38,758 nucleotides of DNA from a virus, in UHGV virus genome UHGV-0370973; one strand, given 5' to 3'. The notes beneath the pieces are model-generated. The model was not told the origin of the DNA. It worked only from the letters and a program-made list of their open reading frames with translations, and searched no databases. Shown here in pieces: positions 2,328-15,837 of this stretch. Each line of letters begins with the position of its first letter. Position 1 is the first letter of the stretch. The translations under genes and the position numbers were made by a program.

Positions 2328-4014
2328 ACCGCGATGTGATGAATCTGCAGAAATGACTGAGACCGAACAACGTCTGTTCATTATGACAAAACTGAGCAAT
2401 CCCTGGTGGCGCCTCAATCATCTCTACAAGATACAGAACGAAAAAGGTGAGCTGGTCACCTTCAGAATGCGACCGGCGCAGCGCCAGTTGTTCCGGAGCA
2501 TGCACAATAAAAATATTATCCTGAAAGCACGCCAGCTGGGGTTTTCCACGGCCATTGATATTTATCTTCTCGACCAGGCATTATTCATACCGCATCTCAA
2601 ATGCGGGATTGTCGCTCAGGATAAACAGGCTGCCAGTGAAATTTTCCGCACCAAAATTGCTGTACCGTTTGATCATCTTCCTGACTGGCTGAGAGCCTCA
2701 TTCACCATCGTTGAACGTCGTAGCGGAGCCAGCGGTGGCTATATCCTGTTTGGTCACGGCTCGAGTATCCAGGTGGCAACCTCATTCCGTTCAGGTACGG
2801 TGCAGCGCCTGCATATCTCAGAGCACGGCAAAATTTGCGCAAAATATCCGGCTAAGGCGAAAGAACTGCGAACCGGTACACTTAATGCCGTCTCTGATGA
2901 GTGCATTATTTTTGATGAATCCACTGCTGAAGGTGTGGGTGGCGATTTTTACGAGATGAGTAACCGGGCACAGGAAATCACTGCATCAGGGCTGGCGCTG
3001 ACGCCACAGGATTATAAATTCCATTTTTACGCCTGGTGGCAGGATCTCAAATACAGCGCCAGAGTGCCGGAAAGCGGACTTAAGCTGTCACAGGAAAAAA
3101 CAGCGTATTTTTCTGCGGTTGAAAAAGCAATGAACATCACGCTTACCGATGAGCAGAAACACTGGTACATCTGCAAGGAAACTGAACAGCGTGAGGAAAT
3201 GAAGCAGGAATTTCCCTCAACGCCACAGGAGGCGTTTCTGACGTCAGGACGACGGGTGTTCAGTGCGGAAAGCACGCTGCAGGCAGAGTCATTCTGTTCG
3301 CCACCGCTGATTGTTTATGACATTGAACCGGTTACAGGAACGAAGACCAAAGCGCAGTCTCTGCGTGACGGGAATAAAGCCGAACAGCACCGGACGCTGA
3401 TGAATTATCTGCTGGTCTGGGAGCTGCCGGATCCGGATGAAGAGTATGTATGCGGAGCGGATACCGCTGAGGGGCTGGAGCACGGAGACCGCTCATCGCT
3501 GGATATCATCAGATGCAGTAATGGTGAGCAGGTGGCTCACTGGTTTGGTCATCTCGATGCGGAGCTTTTCGCTCATCTCATTGCGCAGGTCTGCCGTATG
3601 TACAACAATGCGTTTGTGGGGCCGGAGCGTAACAATCACGGACATGCCGTTATCCTGAAACTCAGGGAACTCTATCCGACGCGTTATATCTACAACGAAC
3701 AGCACCTTGACCAGGCATATGACGACGATACGCCCCGTCTTGGCTGGCTGACAACCCGCCAGAGTAAACCGGTCCTGACAGAGGGAATGAAAACGCTGCT
3801 GAATAACGGCCTGTCGGGGATCCGCTGGTCGGGCACATTATCAGAAATGAACACCTACGTTTATGACGCGAAAGGCTCCATGAATGCACAGGAAGGCTGT
3901 TTTGATGATCAGCTTATGAGCTACATGATTGCCCAGGAGATGCGCGCCAGAATGCCGGTGAGGGTAAAACAGAAAACGGATAAACGCAGAACCACACACT
4001 GGATGGCTCACTGA
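2308..4014 (+). CDS. Terminase large subunit
   Basis: 568-aa ORF with a typical terminase N-terminus (NPWWRLNHLYKIQNEKGELV, ILKARQLGFSTAI Walker-A-like region) and a nuclease-type C-terminal half. Start overlaps terS by 20 nt; its stop overlaps the portal start. Confidence 0.85.
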   Translation: MTFRKNKPRCDESAEMTETEQRLFIMTKLSNPWWRLNHLYKIQNEKGELVTFRMRPAQRQLFRSMHNKNIILKARQLGFSTAIDIYLLDQALFIPHLKCGIVAQDKQAASEIFRTKIAVPFDHLPDWLRASFTIVERRSGASGGYILFGHGSSIQVATSFRSGTVQRLHISEHGKICAKYPAKAKELRTGTLNAVSDECIIFDESTAEGVGGDFYEMSNRAQEITASGLALTPQDYKFHFYAWWQDLKYSARVPESGLKLSQEKTAYFSAVEKAMNITLTDEQKHWYICKETEQREEMKQEFPSTPQEAFLTSGRRVFSAESTLQAESFCSPPLIVYDIEPVTGTKTKAQSLRDGNKAEQHRTLMNYLLVWELPDPDEEYVCGADTAEGLEHGDRSSLDIIRCSNGEQVAHWFGHLDAELFAHLIAQVCRMYNNAFVGPERNNHGHAVILKLRELYPTRYIYNEQHLDQAYDDDTPRLGWLTTRQSKPVLTEGMKTLLNNGLSGIRWSGTLSEMNTYVYDAKGSMNAQEGCFDDQLMSYMIAQEMRARMPVRVKQKTDKRRTTHWMAH

Positions 4015-6158
4015 TGAAAAATGAAACTAATACCATGGCGACGAAAAACGACAACGGAGCCACGCCGCGTTTTTCTCAGCGCCAGTTACAGGCGCTTTGT
4101 TCTGATATTGACAGTCAGCCTAAATGGCGCGATGCCGCAAACAAGGCCTGTGCGTATTACGATGGTGACCAGTTGCCACCGGAAGTTCTCCAGGTGTTGA
4201 AAGATCGCGGTCAGCCGATGACCATCCATAACCTCATCGCGCCTACCGTTGATGGTGTTCTGGGTATGGAGGCCAAAACGCGGACTGATCTGTTGGTGAT
4301 ATCAGATGATCCTGATGATGAAACAGAAAAACTGGCTGAAGCTATTAATGCTGAATTTGCCGATGCTTGCCGCCTTGGAAATATGAATAAAGCCCGTTCT
4401 GATGCCTATGCGGAACAAATCAAAGCGGGGCTCAGCTGGGTGGAGGTCAGACGGAACAGCGATCCGTTCGGGCCTGAGTTTAAGGTGTCTACTGTCAGCC
4501 GGAATGAAGTGTTCTGGGACTGGCTCAGCCGGGAGGCTGATTTAAGTGACTGCCGCTGGCTGATGCGCCGCCGCTGGATGGATACCGATGAGGCAAAAGC
4601 CACATTTCCGGGAATGGCTCAGGTTATCGATTATGCCATTGATGACTGGCGTGGTTTTGTCGATACCACGGTTACTGAAGGCCAGCCCAGTCCGTTGATG
4701 AGTGCATGGGAAGAGTATCAGTCATGGGATCGACAGCAGAACGAATGGCTTCAGCGTGAACGCCGTCGTGTGCTGCTTCAGGTGGTTTATTACCGTACAT
4801 TCGAGCGTCTTCCGGTGATTGAACTCAGTAATGGACGGGTGGTGGCCTTTGATAAAAATAATCTGATGCATGCGGTGGCTGTGGCATCCGGGCGGGTGCA
4901 GGTGAGAGTCGGGCGGGTAAGTCGTATTCGTGAAGCCTGGTTTGTGGGACCGCACTTTATTGTGGATCGCCCCTGTAGTGCGCCGCAGGGGATGTTCCCG
5001 CTGGTTCCCTTCTGGGGATACCGGAAGGATAAAACCGGGGAGCCTTACGGGCTGATTTCCCGGGCCATTCCGGCACAGGATGAGGTGAATTTTCGTCGTA
5101 TAAAACTGACGTGGTTGCTTCAGGCCAAACGCGTGATTATGGACGAGGATGCCACCCAGTTGTCAGACAACGATCTGATGGAGCAGATCGAGCGTCCGGA
5201 TGGCATTATTAAACTGAATCCGGCCCGAAAAAATCAGAAAAGCGTTGCTGATGTTTTCCGGGTTGAACAGGATTTTCAGGTTGCCAGCCAGCAGTTTCAG
5301 GTCATGCAGGAGTCGGAAAAACTTATCCAGGACACGATGGGGGTTTATTCCGCATTTCTCGGGCAGGATTCAAATGCATCGTCCGGTGTGGCGATCAGCA
5401 ACCTGGTGGAGCAGGGAGCCACAACCCTTGCCGAAATCAACGATAACTACCAGTTTGCCTGCCAGCAGGTGGGAAGGCTGTTGCTCGCTTATCTTCTTGA
5501 TGACCTGAAAAAGCGGCGTAATCATGCGGTGGTGATTAATCGCGATGATCGTCAGCGTCGCCAGACCATTGTCCTCAATGCTGAAGGTGATAATGGTGAA
5601 CTGACCAATGATATTTCAAGGTTAAATACACATATTGCGCTGGCTCCTGTTCAGCAGACACCGGCGTTTAAGGCACAGCTTGCACAGAGAATGTCAGAGG
5701 TTATTCAGGGGCTGCCGCCTCAGGTGCAGGCTGTTGTGCTCGATCTGTGGGTTAATCTTCTGGATGTGCCGCAGAAACAGGAATTTGTCGAACGTATTCG
5801 TGCGGCGCTGGGGACGCCAAAATCACCGGATGAGATGACTCCGGAAGAGCAGGAAGCGGCAGCACAACAGCAGGCGCTGGAGCAACAGCAGGCAGAACTT
5901 CAGATGCGCGAAATGACAGGCCGGGTGGCTAAACTGGAAGCAGAAGCTGCCAGGGCACGCGCGGCTGCGCAACGGGATAATGCTGGCGCACAACGGGATG
6001 TCGCCGTGGCACAGGGACAGCGTTATGTGGATGCGCTTAACCAGGCACATACGGCAGAAATCATTACCGGCATACAGAATATGGAACAGGAGCAGGAAGT
6101 TCTTCAGCAACAGATGCTGCATACACTACAACAGCGGATGCATGAAATGCCGCTCTGA
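4014..6158 (+). CDS. Portal protein
   Basis: 714-aa ORF directly downstream of terL, with a long C-terminal Gln/Ala-rich coiled-coil tail (QQQALEQQQAELQMRE...) as in P22-type portals. Confidence 0.8.
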   Translation: MKNETNTMATKNDNGATPRFSQRQLQALCSDIDSQPKWRDAANKACAYYDGDQLPPEVLQVLKDRGQPMTIHNLIAPTVDGVLGMEAKTRTDLLVISDDPDDETEKLAEAINAEFADACRLGNMNKARSDAYAEQIKAGLSWVEVRRNSDPFGPEFKVSTVSRNEVFWDWLSREADLSDCRWLMRRRWMDTDEAKATFPGMAQVIDYAIDDWRGFVDTTVTEGQPSPLMSAWEEYQSWDRQQNEWLQRERRRVLLQVVYYRTFERLPVIELSNGRVVAFDKNNLMHAVAVASGRVQVRVGRVSRIREAWFVGPHFIVDRPCSAPQGMFPLVPFWGYRKDKTGEPYGLISRAIPAQDEVNFRRIKLTWLLQAKRVIMDEDATQLSDNDLMEQIERPDGIIKLNPARKNQKSVADVFRVEQDFQVASQQFQVMQESEKLIQDTMGVYSAFLGQDSNASSGVAISNLVEQGATTLAEINDNYQFACQQVGRLLLAYLLDDLKKRRNHAVVINRDDRQRRQTIVLNAEGDNGELTNDISRLNTHIALAPVQQTPAFKAQLAQRMSEVIQGLPPQVQAVVLDLWVNLLDVPQKQEFVERIRAALGTPKSPDEMTPEEQEAAAQQQALEQQQAELQMREMTGRVAKLEAEAARARAAAQRDNAGAQRDVAVAQGQRYVDALNQAHTAEIITGIQNMEQEQEVLQQQMLHTLQQRMHEMPL

Positions 6159-13245: not shown

Positions 13246-13565
13246 CAGATAAAAATATGGGGGAAACATTTCTTTCCCTCATGAACTATTCCTCCTGTAA
13301 ATATTTTATGTTAACTGAATAGTTAATTTTTTCTGATGTTGTAATTTTGTTCACAAATTACAGTGTAAGCAGATGTGAAACAGCAAGTCTGACTGGGGTA
13401 AGTTTTTTCTGATATCTGTTCCGGCGGTGTGGTCGTATGCGTGAGCAGGTATGCCCAGAATAATGTAAGACAAATCCTAAATTTATAAAATTAATTTTTA
13501 AATTTATTTTCGGAATATCCTGAAAAAAGCCGTAATTAATCAGACTTTTTTATGAGTGTGAGGTG

Positions 13566-13593
13566 TTGCGGCTGATTTGTATACAGATAATTT
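13566..13593 (+). promoter_or_regulatory. Candidate sigma70 promoter for the eib-like gene
   Basis: TTGCGG-N16-TAATTT in an AT-rich region that is conserved upstream of both eib-like copies. Confidence 0.3.
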
Positions 13594-13608
13594 AACAGGA
13601 TATCCATA

Positions 13609-15072
13609 ATGAGTAAAAAGTTTACAATGACACTCCTGTCATCTTCTCTGGCCGGGCTTCTGGTGATGAGTGGTGGGGTGAGTGCGCAGGAAGAAAAATA
13701 CACAGTGCCGTATGCCACAGGTAACAATAAATGGGGGAATACCTATGAAGTTGTAAAGACAGGCGATAATGGTAACTTCAAATACGAAGTAAAAGAGAAG
13801 AACAACGGCAAGAGGACACTTTTCACATTTGATTCAAATGGGGATGTAATAATCAATGGCAGTGGCATTACGTACACAATTCATGACGGTGCGCTGAACG
13901 ATTTTGCTCAAACAGCTGAGAAAAAAAAGAATGGACCGTCTCAGTCGCACAGAATGACTGATAGCGTTGTTCGTGATGTATATAACAAAGTATACAGTCT
14001 GCAGAGAACAAAAATTACAGGTTTCAGCGTCGAAGATGGGGAGAATGGGAAGGTTTCTCTGGGTAGCGATGCGAAAGCCTCTGGTGAGTTCTCAGTAGCT
14101 GTTGGTACAGGGGCCAGAGCGGATAAAAAATTTGCAACAGCAGTGGGCTCATGGGCTGCTGCGGACGGTAAACAAAGTACAGCTCTGGGAGTGGGAGCAT
14201 ATGCCTATGCAGATGCTTCAACAGCCGCCGGAACAGCTGCTTATGTTGATGGTTCTGCTATTTATGGTACCGCTATAGGTAATTACGCAAAAGTGGATGA
14301 AAATGCAACAGAAGGTACTGCGTTAGGGGCAAAGGCAACAGTAACAAATAAAAACAGTGTTGCATTAGGAGCTAATTCACGCACAACCCGTGACAATGAG
14401 GTTTATATCGGTTATGAAGCAGAGCCGGGTAAGGCTTATAAAACCCGGGTGCTTGGTGGTCTGAGTGACGGTACTCGTCCCTCAGATGCTGCAACCGTTC
14501 GTCAGGTTGACCGTGTAAAAGACAGTGTTGAGCAACTGGCTCAGGATACGAATACCCGCCTTGTAGTCGAAGCGAAAAAGTCTCGTGAATATACAGACTC
14601 CAGAACGACAGTTGGTGTGAACCCTGACGGAAAACTTACCCGTGCAGAAGGTGCGACTAAAACTATCGCCGTCAATGATGGTCTCGTTGCTCTGTCTGGC
14701 AGAACAGACCGTATTGATTATGCAGTTGGTAGCGTTGACCGCCGGGTTACTAAAAATACACAGGCTATTCAGTCCAATACTCGCCAGTTGCAGGAGCATA
14801 ATGCACGCCTGAACAGTCAGCAGCGTCAAATTCGTGAGAATCACGAAGAGATGAAGCGTGCAGCAGCACAGAGTGCAGCGCTGGCGGGGCTTTTCCAGCC
14901 GTACAGTGTGGGGAAATTCAACGCCACTGCTGCCCTGGGGGGGTACAGTGATAAACAGGCTGTTGCCGTGGGTGTTGGTTACCGTTTCAACGAGCAGACC
15001 GCAGCGAAAGCGGGTATTGCAGCGAGTGATGGCGATGTGTCCTACAACATGGGCGTTAACTTCGAGTTTTAA
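13609..15072 (+). CDS. Eib-like trimeric autotransporter adhesin (YadA-type C-terminal anchor)
   Basis: Signal peptide [26 protein letters not shown]; YadA-head-like repeats ([26 protein letters not shown]); coiled-coil stalk; C-terminus [28 protein letters not shown]...YNMGVNFEF is a typical TAA membrane anchor ending in an aromatic residue. Confidence 0.85.
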
Positions 15073-15097
15073 TTGCTGAAAGTGACATGAAGTATGG

Positions 15098-15129
15098 CGG
15101 CAGGCGCAGGACTCTGGTCTGCCGTTTTT
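15098..15129 (+). terminator. Intrinsic terminator after eib-like gene 1
   Basis: Stem cggcag / ctgccg followed by TTTTT; the counterpart after copy 2 has stem cggcaggc / gcctgccg. Confidence 0.5.
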
Positions 15130-15160: not shown

Positions 15161-15631
15161 ATGAAGGTGATTCTGGCTACCAGGAACCGCTATCTGGAGT
15201 ATGGTCTGCAGGCGTTACTGAAGGGGCACAGTGTGATACTGGCGAGGGAGTTTTTCCTGCCGGAGAACCGCCGTTATATCCCGGACTTTGACGAATCCTG
15301 GCTGATAATCAGTGATGGCCTGCTGGGCAGGCTGATGCGCTGTATGTTCCAGGGGCGTCATTTTCTGCAACTGGATGCGGAGTTGCTCCGTGATGGTGAG
15401 CAGATAAGTGATGCCATACACAACGGCGTCTGGACGTATAACAGTGCTGCCCGCCCGCTGACGATGTCAGAGATGGTGGTGATGTTCGGTTATGTCTACC
15501 GCCAGTCGAGACCCTGCCGCCTTGCCAGTGAGATGGGTATTAACACAAAGACGGTGAATACCTTTCTGTATACGGGAATGGCGAAAAACGGGCTGTATGG
15601 TGTGAGCGTCAGACGGCTTGTTGGTGCCTGA
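15161..15631 (+). CDS. Atypical LuxR/FixJ-type transcriptional regulator with receiver-like N-terminus
   Basis: C-terminal LTMSEMVVMFGYVYRQSRPCRLASEMGINTKTVNTFLYTGMAKNGL fits the LuxR-type HTH pattern; N-terminal [20 protein letters not shown] resembles a receiver domain start but lacks the acidic pocket. RBS aggaagg lies 8 nt upstream of ATG 15161. Confidence 0.55.
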   Translation: MKVILATRNRYLEYGLQALLKGHSVILAREFFLPENRRYIPDFDESWLIISDGLLGRLMRCMFQGRHFLQLDAELLRDGEQISDAIHNGVWTYNSAARPLTMSEMVVMFGYVYRQSRPCRLASEMGINTKTVNTFLYTGMAKNGLYGVSVRRLVGA

Positions 15632-15681
15632 TGGCGGTCCTGCCGGATGCGCGGCATCTTCTGATGATTCAGAAGGTGCAG

Positions 15682-15813
15682 ATGATGAACAAAGACAGAG
15701 ACCGGAGATACGGGAGAAAACGTTACACCACAGGCGCAATGTGCTTCATGCTGTTTGTGTGGCTTGGTGGTGTGCTGGCTCTTGTTGCTACAGCTGCGGT
15801 GGTAATGCAGTAA
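15682..15813 (+). CDS. Small hydrophobic membrane peptide (43 aa), conserved in both cassettes
   Basis: MMNKDRDRRYGRKRYTTGAMCFMLFVWLGGVLALVATAAVVMQ has a basic N-terminus and one TM helix; RBS gaagg upstream; a paralogue with the same TM core lies at 34641..34766. Confidence 0.45.
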   Translation: MMNKDRDRRYGRKRYTTGAMCFMLFVWLGGVLALVATAAVVMQ

Positions 15814-15818
15814 AAAAA

Positions 15819-15837
15819 GGGGAGCAACATGCTCCCC
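15819..15837. terminator. GC hairpin flanked by an A-run upstream and no T-run downstream
   Basis: ggggagc-aacat-gctcccc directly after the small peptide stop; reads as a canonical terminator only on the minus strand. Confidence 0.35.

What the first reader, a model, noticed from the sequence alone, without database searches (positions are those of the whole stretch)
15161..15631. LuxR/FixJ-like regulator with a degenerate receiver-type N-terminus
The C-terminal 50 residues fit the LuxR HTH (LT-SE-VV..., GINTKTVNTFLY), while the N-terminus ([17 protein letters not shown]) looks like a response-regulator receiver start in which the acidic residues that normally precede the phospho-acceptor Asp are replaced (ATRN instead of DD). 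This suggests a phosphorylation-independent, phage-borne regulator; both cassette copies carry it.
Basis: inference. Interest (0 to 1): 0.5.

Follow-up and report, generated by a model that had tools for sequence, protein, structure and literature searches.

The report
TosE-like LuxR regulator in Eib cassettes
The ORF is a real, conserved small transcription factor with a LuxR-type DNA-binding domain and a shortened, phosphorylation-dead receiver-like domain; it is a prophage relative of TosE, the motility-suppressing regulator of the uropathogenic E. coli adhesin operon, and sits behind each immunoglobulin-binding adhesin gene.

Summary
Window 15161-15631 (+) is a 156-aa ORF with a paralog at 34114-34587 (69% aa identity, dN/dS 0.18). 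Each lies 3' of an eib-type trimeric autotransporter gene, behind a strong terminator hairpin.

It is the unannotated 'ORF-156' of phages P-EibA/C/D/E. Pfam and NCBIfam give no hit. Structure prediction and profile-profile comparison show two domains:

T7/R8 replace the acidic pair, and no conserved T/S or Lys remains. Asp52, at or next to the acceptor position, is invariant.

The key new result is that it is a full-length homolog of TosE of UPEC CFT073 (32% identity, E 7e-31). TosE is a LuxR-family protein encoded after the RTX adhesin gene tosA behind a similar hairpin, and with TosF it suppresses motility.

The most likely function, which is inferred, is a phosphorylation-independent regulator whose dose follows read-through from the adhesin or late-phage transcript. 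It may work with an RcsB-type partner.

This is a new member of a known kind, of moderate to low interest.

The parts
15161..15631 (+). ORF-156 copy 1, a TosE-family regulator (156 aa). The pseudo-receiver is 15161-15451 (aa 1-97). The GerE/LuxR HTH is 15452-15628 (aa 98-156). The stop is at 15629-15631.
34114..34587 (+). ORF-156 copy 2 (157 aa), a paralog in the second eib cassette.
   Evidence: 69% aa identity to copy 1. dN/dS 0.18. PHROG 6585 E 1.9e-93. BLASTP to TosE E 9e-30.
15096..15129 (+). Intrinsic-terminator hairpin plus U-run between the eib stop and ORF-156 copy 1.
   Evidence: Terminator scan. RNA fold -30.3 kcal/mol, z -2.7. Annotated as stem_loop in AF151675.
34051..34086 (+). 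Intrinsic-terminator hairpin plus U-run between the eib stop and ORF-156 copy 2.
   Evidence: 11-bp stem with a T-run. RNA fold -33.1 kcal/mol, z -3.4.
13609..15072 (+). eib-type trimeric autotransporter adhesin gene (487 aa), the upstream partner of copy 1.
   Evidence: Pfam YadA_anchor and YadA_head. 89-94% nt identity to the eibC/D/E cassettes.
32984..34027 (+). Second eib-type YadA-like gene (347 aa), the upstream partner of copy 2.
   Evidence: ORF list and direct repeats D1-D3 shared with cassette 1.
15631..15813 (+). ORF-60, a small protein with a hydrophobic C-terminal segment. Its start overlaps the ORF-156 stop by one base. PGAP calls a shorter 49-aa form.
   Evidence: phrog_9340 E 7.6e-30.
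34641..34766 (+). ORF-60 homolog of cassette 2 (41 aa from the ATG).
   Evidence: phrog_9340 E 2.2e-13.
13320..13608 (+). AT-rich, highly conserved eib upstream region (a candidate regulatory target). It includes the palindrome TAAATTTATAAA-N5-TTTTTAAATTTA at 13478-13506.
   Evidence: Three-way alignment of eib1, eib2 and eibD upstream regions has 92% mean column identity overall, and is nearly invariant from about column 100 to the start codon. GC 33%. Inverted repeats.

Best explanation
ORF-156 is a small cytoplasmic transcription factor of the TosE family.

Shown: It has a C-terminal four-helix GerE/LuxR DNA-binding domain. It has an N-terminal pseudo-receiver, a CheY-like fold reduced to four beta-alpha units. 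In that domain the Mg2+-binding acidic pair is replaced by Thr7-Arg8, the beta3-alpha3 loop is missing, and no conserved Thr/Ser or Lys remains. Only Asp52 at the end of beta3 is kept. The gene is a conserved part of the prophage eib cassette, which reads: AT-rich promoter region, eib adhesin gene, terminator hairpin, ORF-156, ORF-60. The tos operon of uropathogenic E. coli has the same layout: tosA, hairpin, tosE.

Inferred: The protein cannot be switched by a histidine kinase, so its activity is set by its amount. No sigma-70 consensus promoter was found between the hairpin and the ORF. Its amount would therefore depend on read-through of the terminator, either from the eib promoter or from the Q-antiterminated late phage transcript. 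Regulator dose would then track adhesin or late-gene transcription. By analogy with TosE/TosF, the likely output is repression of flagellar motility and related surface genes when the adhesin is made. It would act as a dimer, possibly with a host NarL-type partner such as RcsB.
For: Fold:
- AF2 pLDDT is 82.8, with a beta-alpha(x4) N-domain followed by four helices.
- 41 of the Foldseek top 43 hits are full-length NarL/FixJ regulators.

Sequence:
- hhalign of the family against five E. coli NarL-type regulators gives Prob 91%, E 1e-6, collinear over both domains.
- The HTH alone gives Prob 96.6%.
- The N-domain alignment maps T7/R8 to DD and D52 to the acceptor Asp.
- T7 and D52 are invariant in the 19 N-domain sequences.
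- Distant members hit Pfam GerE (P0074 at 28.4 bits, above the cut-off).

TosE link:
- BLASTP gives 32% identity over 151 aa, E 7e-31.
- The family profile, built without TosE, finds it at E 2e-33.
- The tosA-hairpin-tosE layout is confirmed.
- TosE/TosF are reported as LuxR-family proteins that suppress motility (PMC5956150, PMC7545054).

Cassette and selection:
- Cassette synteny holds in P-EibA/C/D/E and other phages.
- Strong terminators are present and no promoter-like site was found before the ORF.
- Purifying selection is seen.
Against: - No direct Pfam or NCBIfam hit for the window protein, and no Response_reg hit for any member.
- The TosF partner is absent from the cassette.
- Some family members stand alone, away from any adhesin gene.
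- From memory of Sandt et al. 2002 (paper not held): K-12 lysogens carrying whole Eib prophages express little Eib, so ORF-156 is not a sufficient activator of eib.
- No expression, DNA-binding or motility data exist for ORF-156. The mechanism of TosE itself is described as unknown.
Confidence: 0.6

Rival explanations
1. It is an auxiliary partner of the host response regulator RcsB, in the manner of GadE, DctR, MatA/EcpR, BglJ and RcsA. It would have no autonomous activity. It would heterodimerise with RcsB and retarget it, so the prophage plugs into the Rcs envelope-stress regulon. This overlaps with the best explanation rather than excluding it.
For: - The architecture is the same as the known partners: a short LuxR-type protein with a non-phosphorylatable N-domain.
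- The N-terminal motif T-[KR]-[DN]-x-[YF]-L-x-x-G is shared with the GadE family. hhalign N-domain vs GadE N-domain gives Prob 78%, E 2e-5 over 28 columns. Full-length gives E 3e-4, collinear.
- TosE's best NCBIfam hit, though weak, is EcpR.
- A review lists these partners and notes that all are H-NS repressed (PMC5651002). The eib upstream region is 33% GC.
Against: - The GadE similarity is short and below the usual confidence levels (Prob 38% full length).
- No interaction data or co-folding could be run.
- The recognition helix differs from that of GadE.
- No GAD-box-like site is present beyond a 9-mer that is compatible with chance.
Confidence: 0.25
2. It is a cassette-specific regulator of eib itself, an activator or feedback repressor. 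It would bind the highly conserved AT-rich region upstream of eib, as AutA/AutR do at upaB and MatA does at the mat/ecp operon.
For: - Linkage to eib is strict across P-EibA/C/D/E and the window's two cassettes.
- The three-way alignment of the upstream regions (eib1, eib2, eibD) has 92% mean column identity and is nearly invariant over the ~290 nt before the start codon, although synonymous sites of the ORF-156 paralogs are near saturation. Palindromes are present.
- There is a precedent of orphan LuxR/GerE regulators next to an autotransporter adhesin gene that bind its promoter (PMC4844996).
Against: - In the tos system, the adhesin operon is controlled by TosR, H-NS and Lrp, while TosE/TosF are tied to motility.
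- Recalled literature indicates that eib expression in lysogens needs ibrAB from elsewhere in the genome (paper not held).
- Cloned eib genes with only 168 bp of upstream DNA are functional.
- Standalone family members exist without eib.
Confidence: 0.25
3. It is a genuine, phosphorylatable orphan response regulator that uses Asp52 with a host kinase or acetyl phosphate.
For: - Asp52 is invariant and lies at the end of beta3.
- hhalign aligns it with the acceptor Asp.
Against: - The acidic pair is replaced by T7/R8.
- No conserved Thr/Ser at the end of beta4 and no conserved Lys.
- The beta3-alpha3 loop is absent, since helix 3 starts at residue 53.
- There is no Pfam Response_reg signal in any member.
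- No kinase gene is present in the cassette.
Confidence: 0.04
4. It is an inert passenger: a decaying or unexpressed ORF shielded behind a terminator, with no regulatory role in the lysogen.
For: - A strong terminator lies directly upstream and no promoter-like site was found.
- Pseudogenised or scar copies exist in E2348/69 and O157 prophages.
Against: - dN/dS is 0.18, and 0.09 in the HTH, across copies with near-saturated dS.
- Intact full-length copies occur in many genomes.
- The tos operon has the same hairpin layout, and there the downstream genes are reported to be functional.
Confidence: 0.06

Closest known systems
TosE (c0364-type LuxR-family protein of the tosRCBDAEF operon, UPEC CFT073)
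   Same: - Full-length collinear homology: 32% and 30% identity for the two window copies, E 7e-31 and 9e-30.
- Same size (160 vs 156 aa).
- Same N-terminal motif (MNIMIVTHNKYLELGL vs [16 protein letters not shown]) and the same Asp at the end of beta3.
- Same position: directly 3' of a large surface adhesin gene, behind a terminator hairpin.
   Different: - The adhesin is a T1SS RTX protein (TosA) on a pathogenicity island, not a T5SS trimeric autotransporter on a prophage.
- TosE is followed by a second LuxR-type gene, tosF. ORF-156 is followed by a small membrane-protein ORF (ORF-60).
- Only TosE/TosF have a reported phenotype (motility suppression, mechanism unknown).
RcsB auxiliary regulators GadE, DctR (YhiF), MatA/EcpR, BglJ and RcsA
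   Same: - Short LuxR/GerE-type regulators whose N-domains are not phosphorylated.
- GadE and DctR share the T-K/R-D motif after beta1 and an Asp after beta3.
- hhalign N-domain vs GadE N-domain gives Prob 78%.
- Several of them control adhesins or motility.
   Different: - Sequence similarity is marginal: full-length Prob 38%.
- They are chromosomal, not prophage genes.
- Interaction with RcsB is untested for ORF-156.
NarL/FixJ-family response regulators (NarL, RcsB, EvgA, DosR)
   Same: - Receiver-like domain plus GerE HTH, in the same order.
- Best structural matches.
- hhalign Prob 91%.
- DosR, the best N-domain match, is recalled from memory to have a four-unit receiver in its crystal structure.
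   Different: - About 50 residues shorter.
- Acidic pair, Thr/Ser, Lys and the beta3-alpha3 loop are missing.
- No Pfam Response_reg match.
- No partner kinase.
AutA/AutR of avian pathogenic E. coli
   Same: Orphan LuxR/GerE-type regulators without a kinase, encoded next to an autotransporter adhesin gene (upaB). They regulate it together with capsule and acid-resistance genes (PMC4844996).
   Different: - No sequence comparison was made here.
- They are chromosomal, and they are not in one operon with the adhesin.

Membership tests
GerE/LuxR-type HTH (Pfam PF00196 clan) | Four-helix HTH fold superposable on NarL-C or GerE | tested here: met
GerE/LuxR-type HTH (Pfam PF00196 clan) | Sequence-profile match to the family | tested here: inconclusive
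   - The window protein gives no Pfam hit.
- The family profile against PDB finds only LuxR/GerE proteins, at E 0.06-0.2.
- hhalign vs the E. coli NarL-family HTH gives Prob 96.6%, E 5e-10.
- The distant member P0074 passes the GerE cut-off and P0049 is just below it.
- Sigma70_r4_2, from the same clan, hits 10 members.
NarL/FixJ response regulators | Receiver (CheY-like) domain N-terminal to the HTH | tested here: met
NarL/FixJ response regulators | Acidic pair after beta1 (the DD that binds Mg2+) | tested here: not met
   T7-R8 align with DD in both hhalign and MAFFT. T7 is invariant. Position 8 is R, K or H.
NarL/FixJ response regulators | Phospho-acceptor Asp at the end of beta3 | tested here: inconclusive
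   D52 is invariant and follows beta3. hhalign aligns it with the acceptor Asp. MAFFT places it one residue after. Helix 3 starts at residue 53, so the usual loop is absent.
NarL/FixJ response regulators | Conserved Thr/Ser (end of beta4) and Lys (after beta5) | tested here: not met
   No conserved T/S or K is found at the ends of the later strands across the family.
NarL/FixJ response regulators | Pfam Response_reg profile match; cognate kinase nearby | tested here: not met
   No member hits PF00072 even at E up to 10. No kinase gene is present in the window or the cassette.
TosE family | Full-length sequence homology to TosE | tested here: met
   BLASTP E 7e-31 and 9e-30. The family profile built without TosE finds it at E 2e-33. 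tblastn E 9e-27.
TosE family | Encoded 3' of a surface adhesin gene, behind a hairpin | tested here: met
   Window cassettes. tosA-tosE. P0049 lies 3' of HemolysinCabind genes. Exceptions exist.
TosE family | Suppresses flagellar motility, together with TosF | not testable with these tools
   This phenotype is reported only for TosE/TosF. No TosF homolog is present in the cassette.
RcsB auxiliary regulators (GadE/DctR/MatA/BglJ/RcsA) | Physical and functional dependence on RcsB | not testable with these tools
   There is only architectural resemblance and weak sequence similarity. The class is described in PMC5651002.

The most novel reading that the evidence does not exclude
Prophage eib cassettes and the tos island carry the same portable module: an adhesin gene, an attenuating terminator, and a TosE-type pseudo-receiver regulator. 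The regulator would be a new class of RcsB-type auxiliary partner. Its dose would be set by terminator read-through, which in 933W-like prophages would include Q antitermination. Adhesin expression or prophage induction would then rewire host motility and envelope programmes.
Probability: 0.2. Interest if true: 0.55.

Novelty: new member of a known kind. Interest (0 to 1): 0.35.

Why it matters
Eib adhesins confer immunoglobulin binding, serum resistance and chain-like adherence. Their regulation is poorly understood. Showing that every cassette carries a TosE-type regulator gives a concrete, testable candidate for coupling Eib expression to motility or other host programmes. It also links a prophage moron to a regulator family studied in uropathogenic E. 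coli. Finally, it gives a functional annotation to a 'hypothetical protein' present in hundreds of E. coli genomes, and it adds a clean example of a receiver domain reduced to four beta-alpha units with a dismantled phosphorylation pocket.

Tried and rejected
- Direct Pfam and NCBIfam scans of the window protein gave no hits.
- phmmer against PDB gave only chance hits. One was an amusing match to the protein G C-terminal hairpin, E 0.59.
- The N-domain profile against PDB sequences found no receiver.
- The Pfam RcsC-ABL hit to copy 2 (E 0.012, below cut-off) was treated as noise.
- GAD-box idea: no full GAD box is present upstream of eib. The 9-mer TTAGGATTT occurs only in the two homologous upstream regions and is compatible with chance. 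The GAD-box sequence was recalled from memory.
- hhalign with single-sequence templates (GadE, DctR, MatA and others) was uninformative.
- The afdb50 fold library was unavailable.
- The GTDB genome scan returned one locus, labelled a Proteobacteria MAG. It turned out to be the tosA-tosE-tosF region.
- The original Eib and TosE papers (PMC97405, PMC135156, PMC4187811) are not held. What they say about ORF-156, ibrAB and TosE homologs could not be checked.
- A full-text search for 'orf-156' found no paper.

Full report
**Observation**

Window 15161-15631 (+) is an ATG-to-TGA ORF of 156 aa. A Shine-Dalgarno-like AGGAAGG lies 7 nt upstream of the start. The alternative upstream ATG (15131) is not conserved in the second copy.

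A paralog lies at 34114-34587 (157 aa, 69% identity). Nei-Gojobori counting between the two copies gives dN/dS 0.18. The value is 0.25 for residues 1-97 and 0.09 for residues 98-155, with dS about 1.3. Both are therefore old, selected genes.

**Setting**

The window is the late region of a 933W-like prophage, with an N4-gp56-type capsid, tail fibres, Lom, Hok and a 2788-aa LPD5 protein. In the tested 801-bp and 1114-bp stretches around the ORF it is 100% identical to E. coli JNEC-KY173.

Each copy lies 3' of a YadA-like trimeric autotransporter gene of the Eib type (13609-15072 and 32984-34027). The region matches the eibC, eibD, eibE and eibA cassettes of ECOR-9 phages. There the gene is annotated as 'ORF-156' with no function, followed by 'ORF-60'. 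RefSeq calls it a hypothetical protein.

Between the eib stop and the ORF lies a strong GC-rich hairpin with a U-run, in both cassettes. No sigma-70-like site was found between the hairpin and the start codon.

The ~290 nt upstream of eib are AT-rich (33% GC). The three-way alignment with eibD has 92% mean column identity overall and is nearly invariant over that stretch, far more conserved than the synonymous sites of the ORF-156 paralogs.

**What the protein is**

Direct scans give nothing in Pfam or NCBIfam. They give only function-unknown PHROG families (6585 full length; 2014 partial) plus weak sub-threshold hits.

The family is tiny. There are 44 clusters in the 5.8-billion-sequence set. 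There are 38 representatives among 1.84 billion. Every hit that carries a source name is from E. coli.

A family profile against PDB sequences finds only LuxR/GerE proteins, at sub-significant E-values of 0.06-0.2. AlphaFold2 with the family alignment gives a confident model (pLDDT 82.8, pTM 0.75). Its elements are:
- beta1 at 2-6, alpha1 at 10-19, beta2 at 24-27, and a short helix at 28-31
- beta3 at 47-51, alpha3 at 53-63, beta4 at 67-72, alpha4 at 79-88, and a two-residue strand at 92-93
- four helices at 102-113, 118-125, 129-142 and 150-153

At sequence level I ran hhalign of the family against an alignment of NarL, EvgA, RcsB, FimZ and UhpA taken from the K-12 record:
- Full length: Prob 91%, E 1e-6, collinear across both domains.
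- HTH alone: Prob 96.6%, E 5e-10.
- N-domain alone: only Prob 28%.
- Controls (N-domain against HTH domains): Prob 0.2%.

Divergent family members hit Pfam GerE on their own. P0074 scores 28.4 bits, above the 23.5-bit cut-off, and P0049 has E 1e-4. No member hits Response_reg.

**The would-be phosphorylation pocket**

Both hhalign and MAFFT align T7-R8 with the DD pair and N9 with the following His. T7 is invariant, and position 8 is R, K or H.

D52 is invariant and follows beta3. hhalign aligns it with the acceptor Asp, while MAFFT places it one residue later. Helix 3 begins at residue 53, so the beta3-alpha3 loop of true receivers is missing.

No conserved Thr/Ser or Lys is present on the later strands. 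The domain has four beta-alpha units, and which unit was lost is ambiguous.

Independence from phosphorylation itself remains an inference.

**The closest relative**

The only locus returned by the GTDB scan carried a family member 3' of a huge repeat protein, followed by a second LuxR-type ORF. The CFT073 record shows that this is the tos operon. The family member is TosE, identical to the L003 ORF, and the next gene is TosF.

BLASTP of the window proteins against TosE gives 32% and 30% identity over about 151 residues, with E 7e-31 and 9e-30. The family profile built without TosE found it at E 2e-33.

The tosA-tosE spacer also holds a 10-bp terminator-like hairpin with a U-run. Another divergent member, P0049, lies 3' of HemolysinCabind proteins.

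TosE and TosF are described as LuxR-family proteins that suppress motility by an unknown mechanism (PMC5956150, PMC7545054, PMC10392849).

Not all members are adhesin-linked:
- A 55%-identical form (P0031) sits near hpaBC and a PerC-like gene.
- E2348/69 has a pseudogenised prophage copy.
- An O157:H7 Stx2 prophage keeps only a scar.

**Wider class**

GadE and DctR share the T-K/R-D-x-F/Y-L-x-x-G start and an Asp after beta3. hhalign of the N-domains gives Prob 78%, E 2e-5 over 28 columns. Full length gives Prob 38%, E 3e-4, collinear. This is suggestive but not proof.

These proteins, with MatA, BglJ and RcsA, are RcsB auxiliary partners (PMC5651002). AutA/AutR are another precedent: kinase-less LuxR/GerE regulators encoded beside an autotransporter adhesin gene (PMC4844996).

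**Mechanism**

Shown:
- The two-domain fold.
- The dismantled acidic pocket.
- Homology to TosE.
- Cassette synteny.
- The terminator directly upstream.
- Purifying selection.

Inferred:
- The protein is a constitutively competent DNA-binding regulator whose activity depends on its amount.
- That amount depends on read-through of the eib terminator, from the eib promoter or from the Q-antiterminated late transcript.
- Its output resembles that of TosE/TosF (motility down when the adhesin is up), possibly through heterodimers with RcsB.

Rivals are direct autoregulation of eib, an obligatory RcsB partnership, true phosphorylation at D52, and an inert passenger ORF. The last two are unlikely.

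**Novelty and verdict**

The ORF has been deposited since 2000 as ORF-156 (GenBank AF151675), and its relative TosE is already called a LuxR-family member. This is therefore a new member of a known kind.

What is new here is the functional assignment of ORF-156, its link to TosE, and the description of the four-unit pseudo-receiver. I could not check whether the TosE paper already noted this homology. Interest is moderate to low.

Noticed in passing
window 34923-38504 (+); repeats 38050-38168 and 38640-38758: A 1193-aa SPATE-type serine protease autotransporter (Pfam Peptidase_S6, E 2.8e-83) lies directly after the second eib cassette. No beta-barrel domain hit was found and the C-terminal sequence looks odd, so the gene may be disrupted. 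A 119-nt perfect direct repeat lies at the window end.
   Followed up: partly
window 15631-15813 and 34641-34766 (+): ORF-60 is a small protein with a conserved hydrophobic C-terminal segment (phrog_9340, unknown function). It follows ORF-156 in both cassettes, and in copy 1 its start overlaps the ORF-156 stop.
   Followed up: partly
window 13320-13608 and 32695-32983: The eib upstream region is nearly invariant between the two cassettes and eibD (92% mean column identity over the whole three-way alignment), although the linked ORF-156 paralogs have dS about 1.3. It is 33-36% GC and holds the palindrome TAAATTTATAAA-N5-TTTTTAAATTTA (13478-13506). This points to strong regulatory constraint or to gene conversion.
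   Followed up: partly
L020 (E. coli O157:H7 86-24 Stx2 prophage) 3001-3106; L021 (E2348/69 prophage) 5001-5449: O157:H7 Stx2-type prophages keep only a ~106-nt remnant of the 3' end of ORF-156, at the same position between the tail-fibre genes and the L0124-like gene. E2348/69 carries a pseudogenised copy after its tail-fibre genes.
   Followed up: partly
L013-L016 5001-5495: A 55%-identical family member (P0031, listed in 391 blocks of the collection index) sits alone in a chromosomal island next to hpaBC and near a PerC-family gene, with no adhesin gene beside it.
   Followed up: no
window 15404-15484 (aa 82-108 of ORF-156): A short similarity to the C-terminal beta-hairpin of streptococcal protein G (GVWTY..A..T..TEMV) was found, with E 0.59. 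It is judged to be chance, though curious next to an immunoglobulin-binding gene.
   Followed up: no
window 15819-15837: A GC-rich hairpin after ORF-60 has its T-run on the minus strand only, so by pattern it looks like a minus-strand terminator. No long minus-strand gene lies upstream of it.
   Followed up: no
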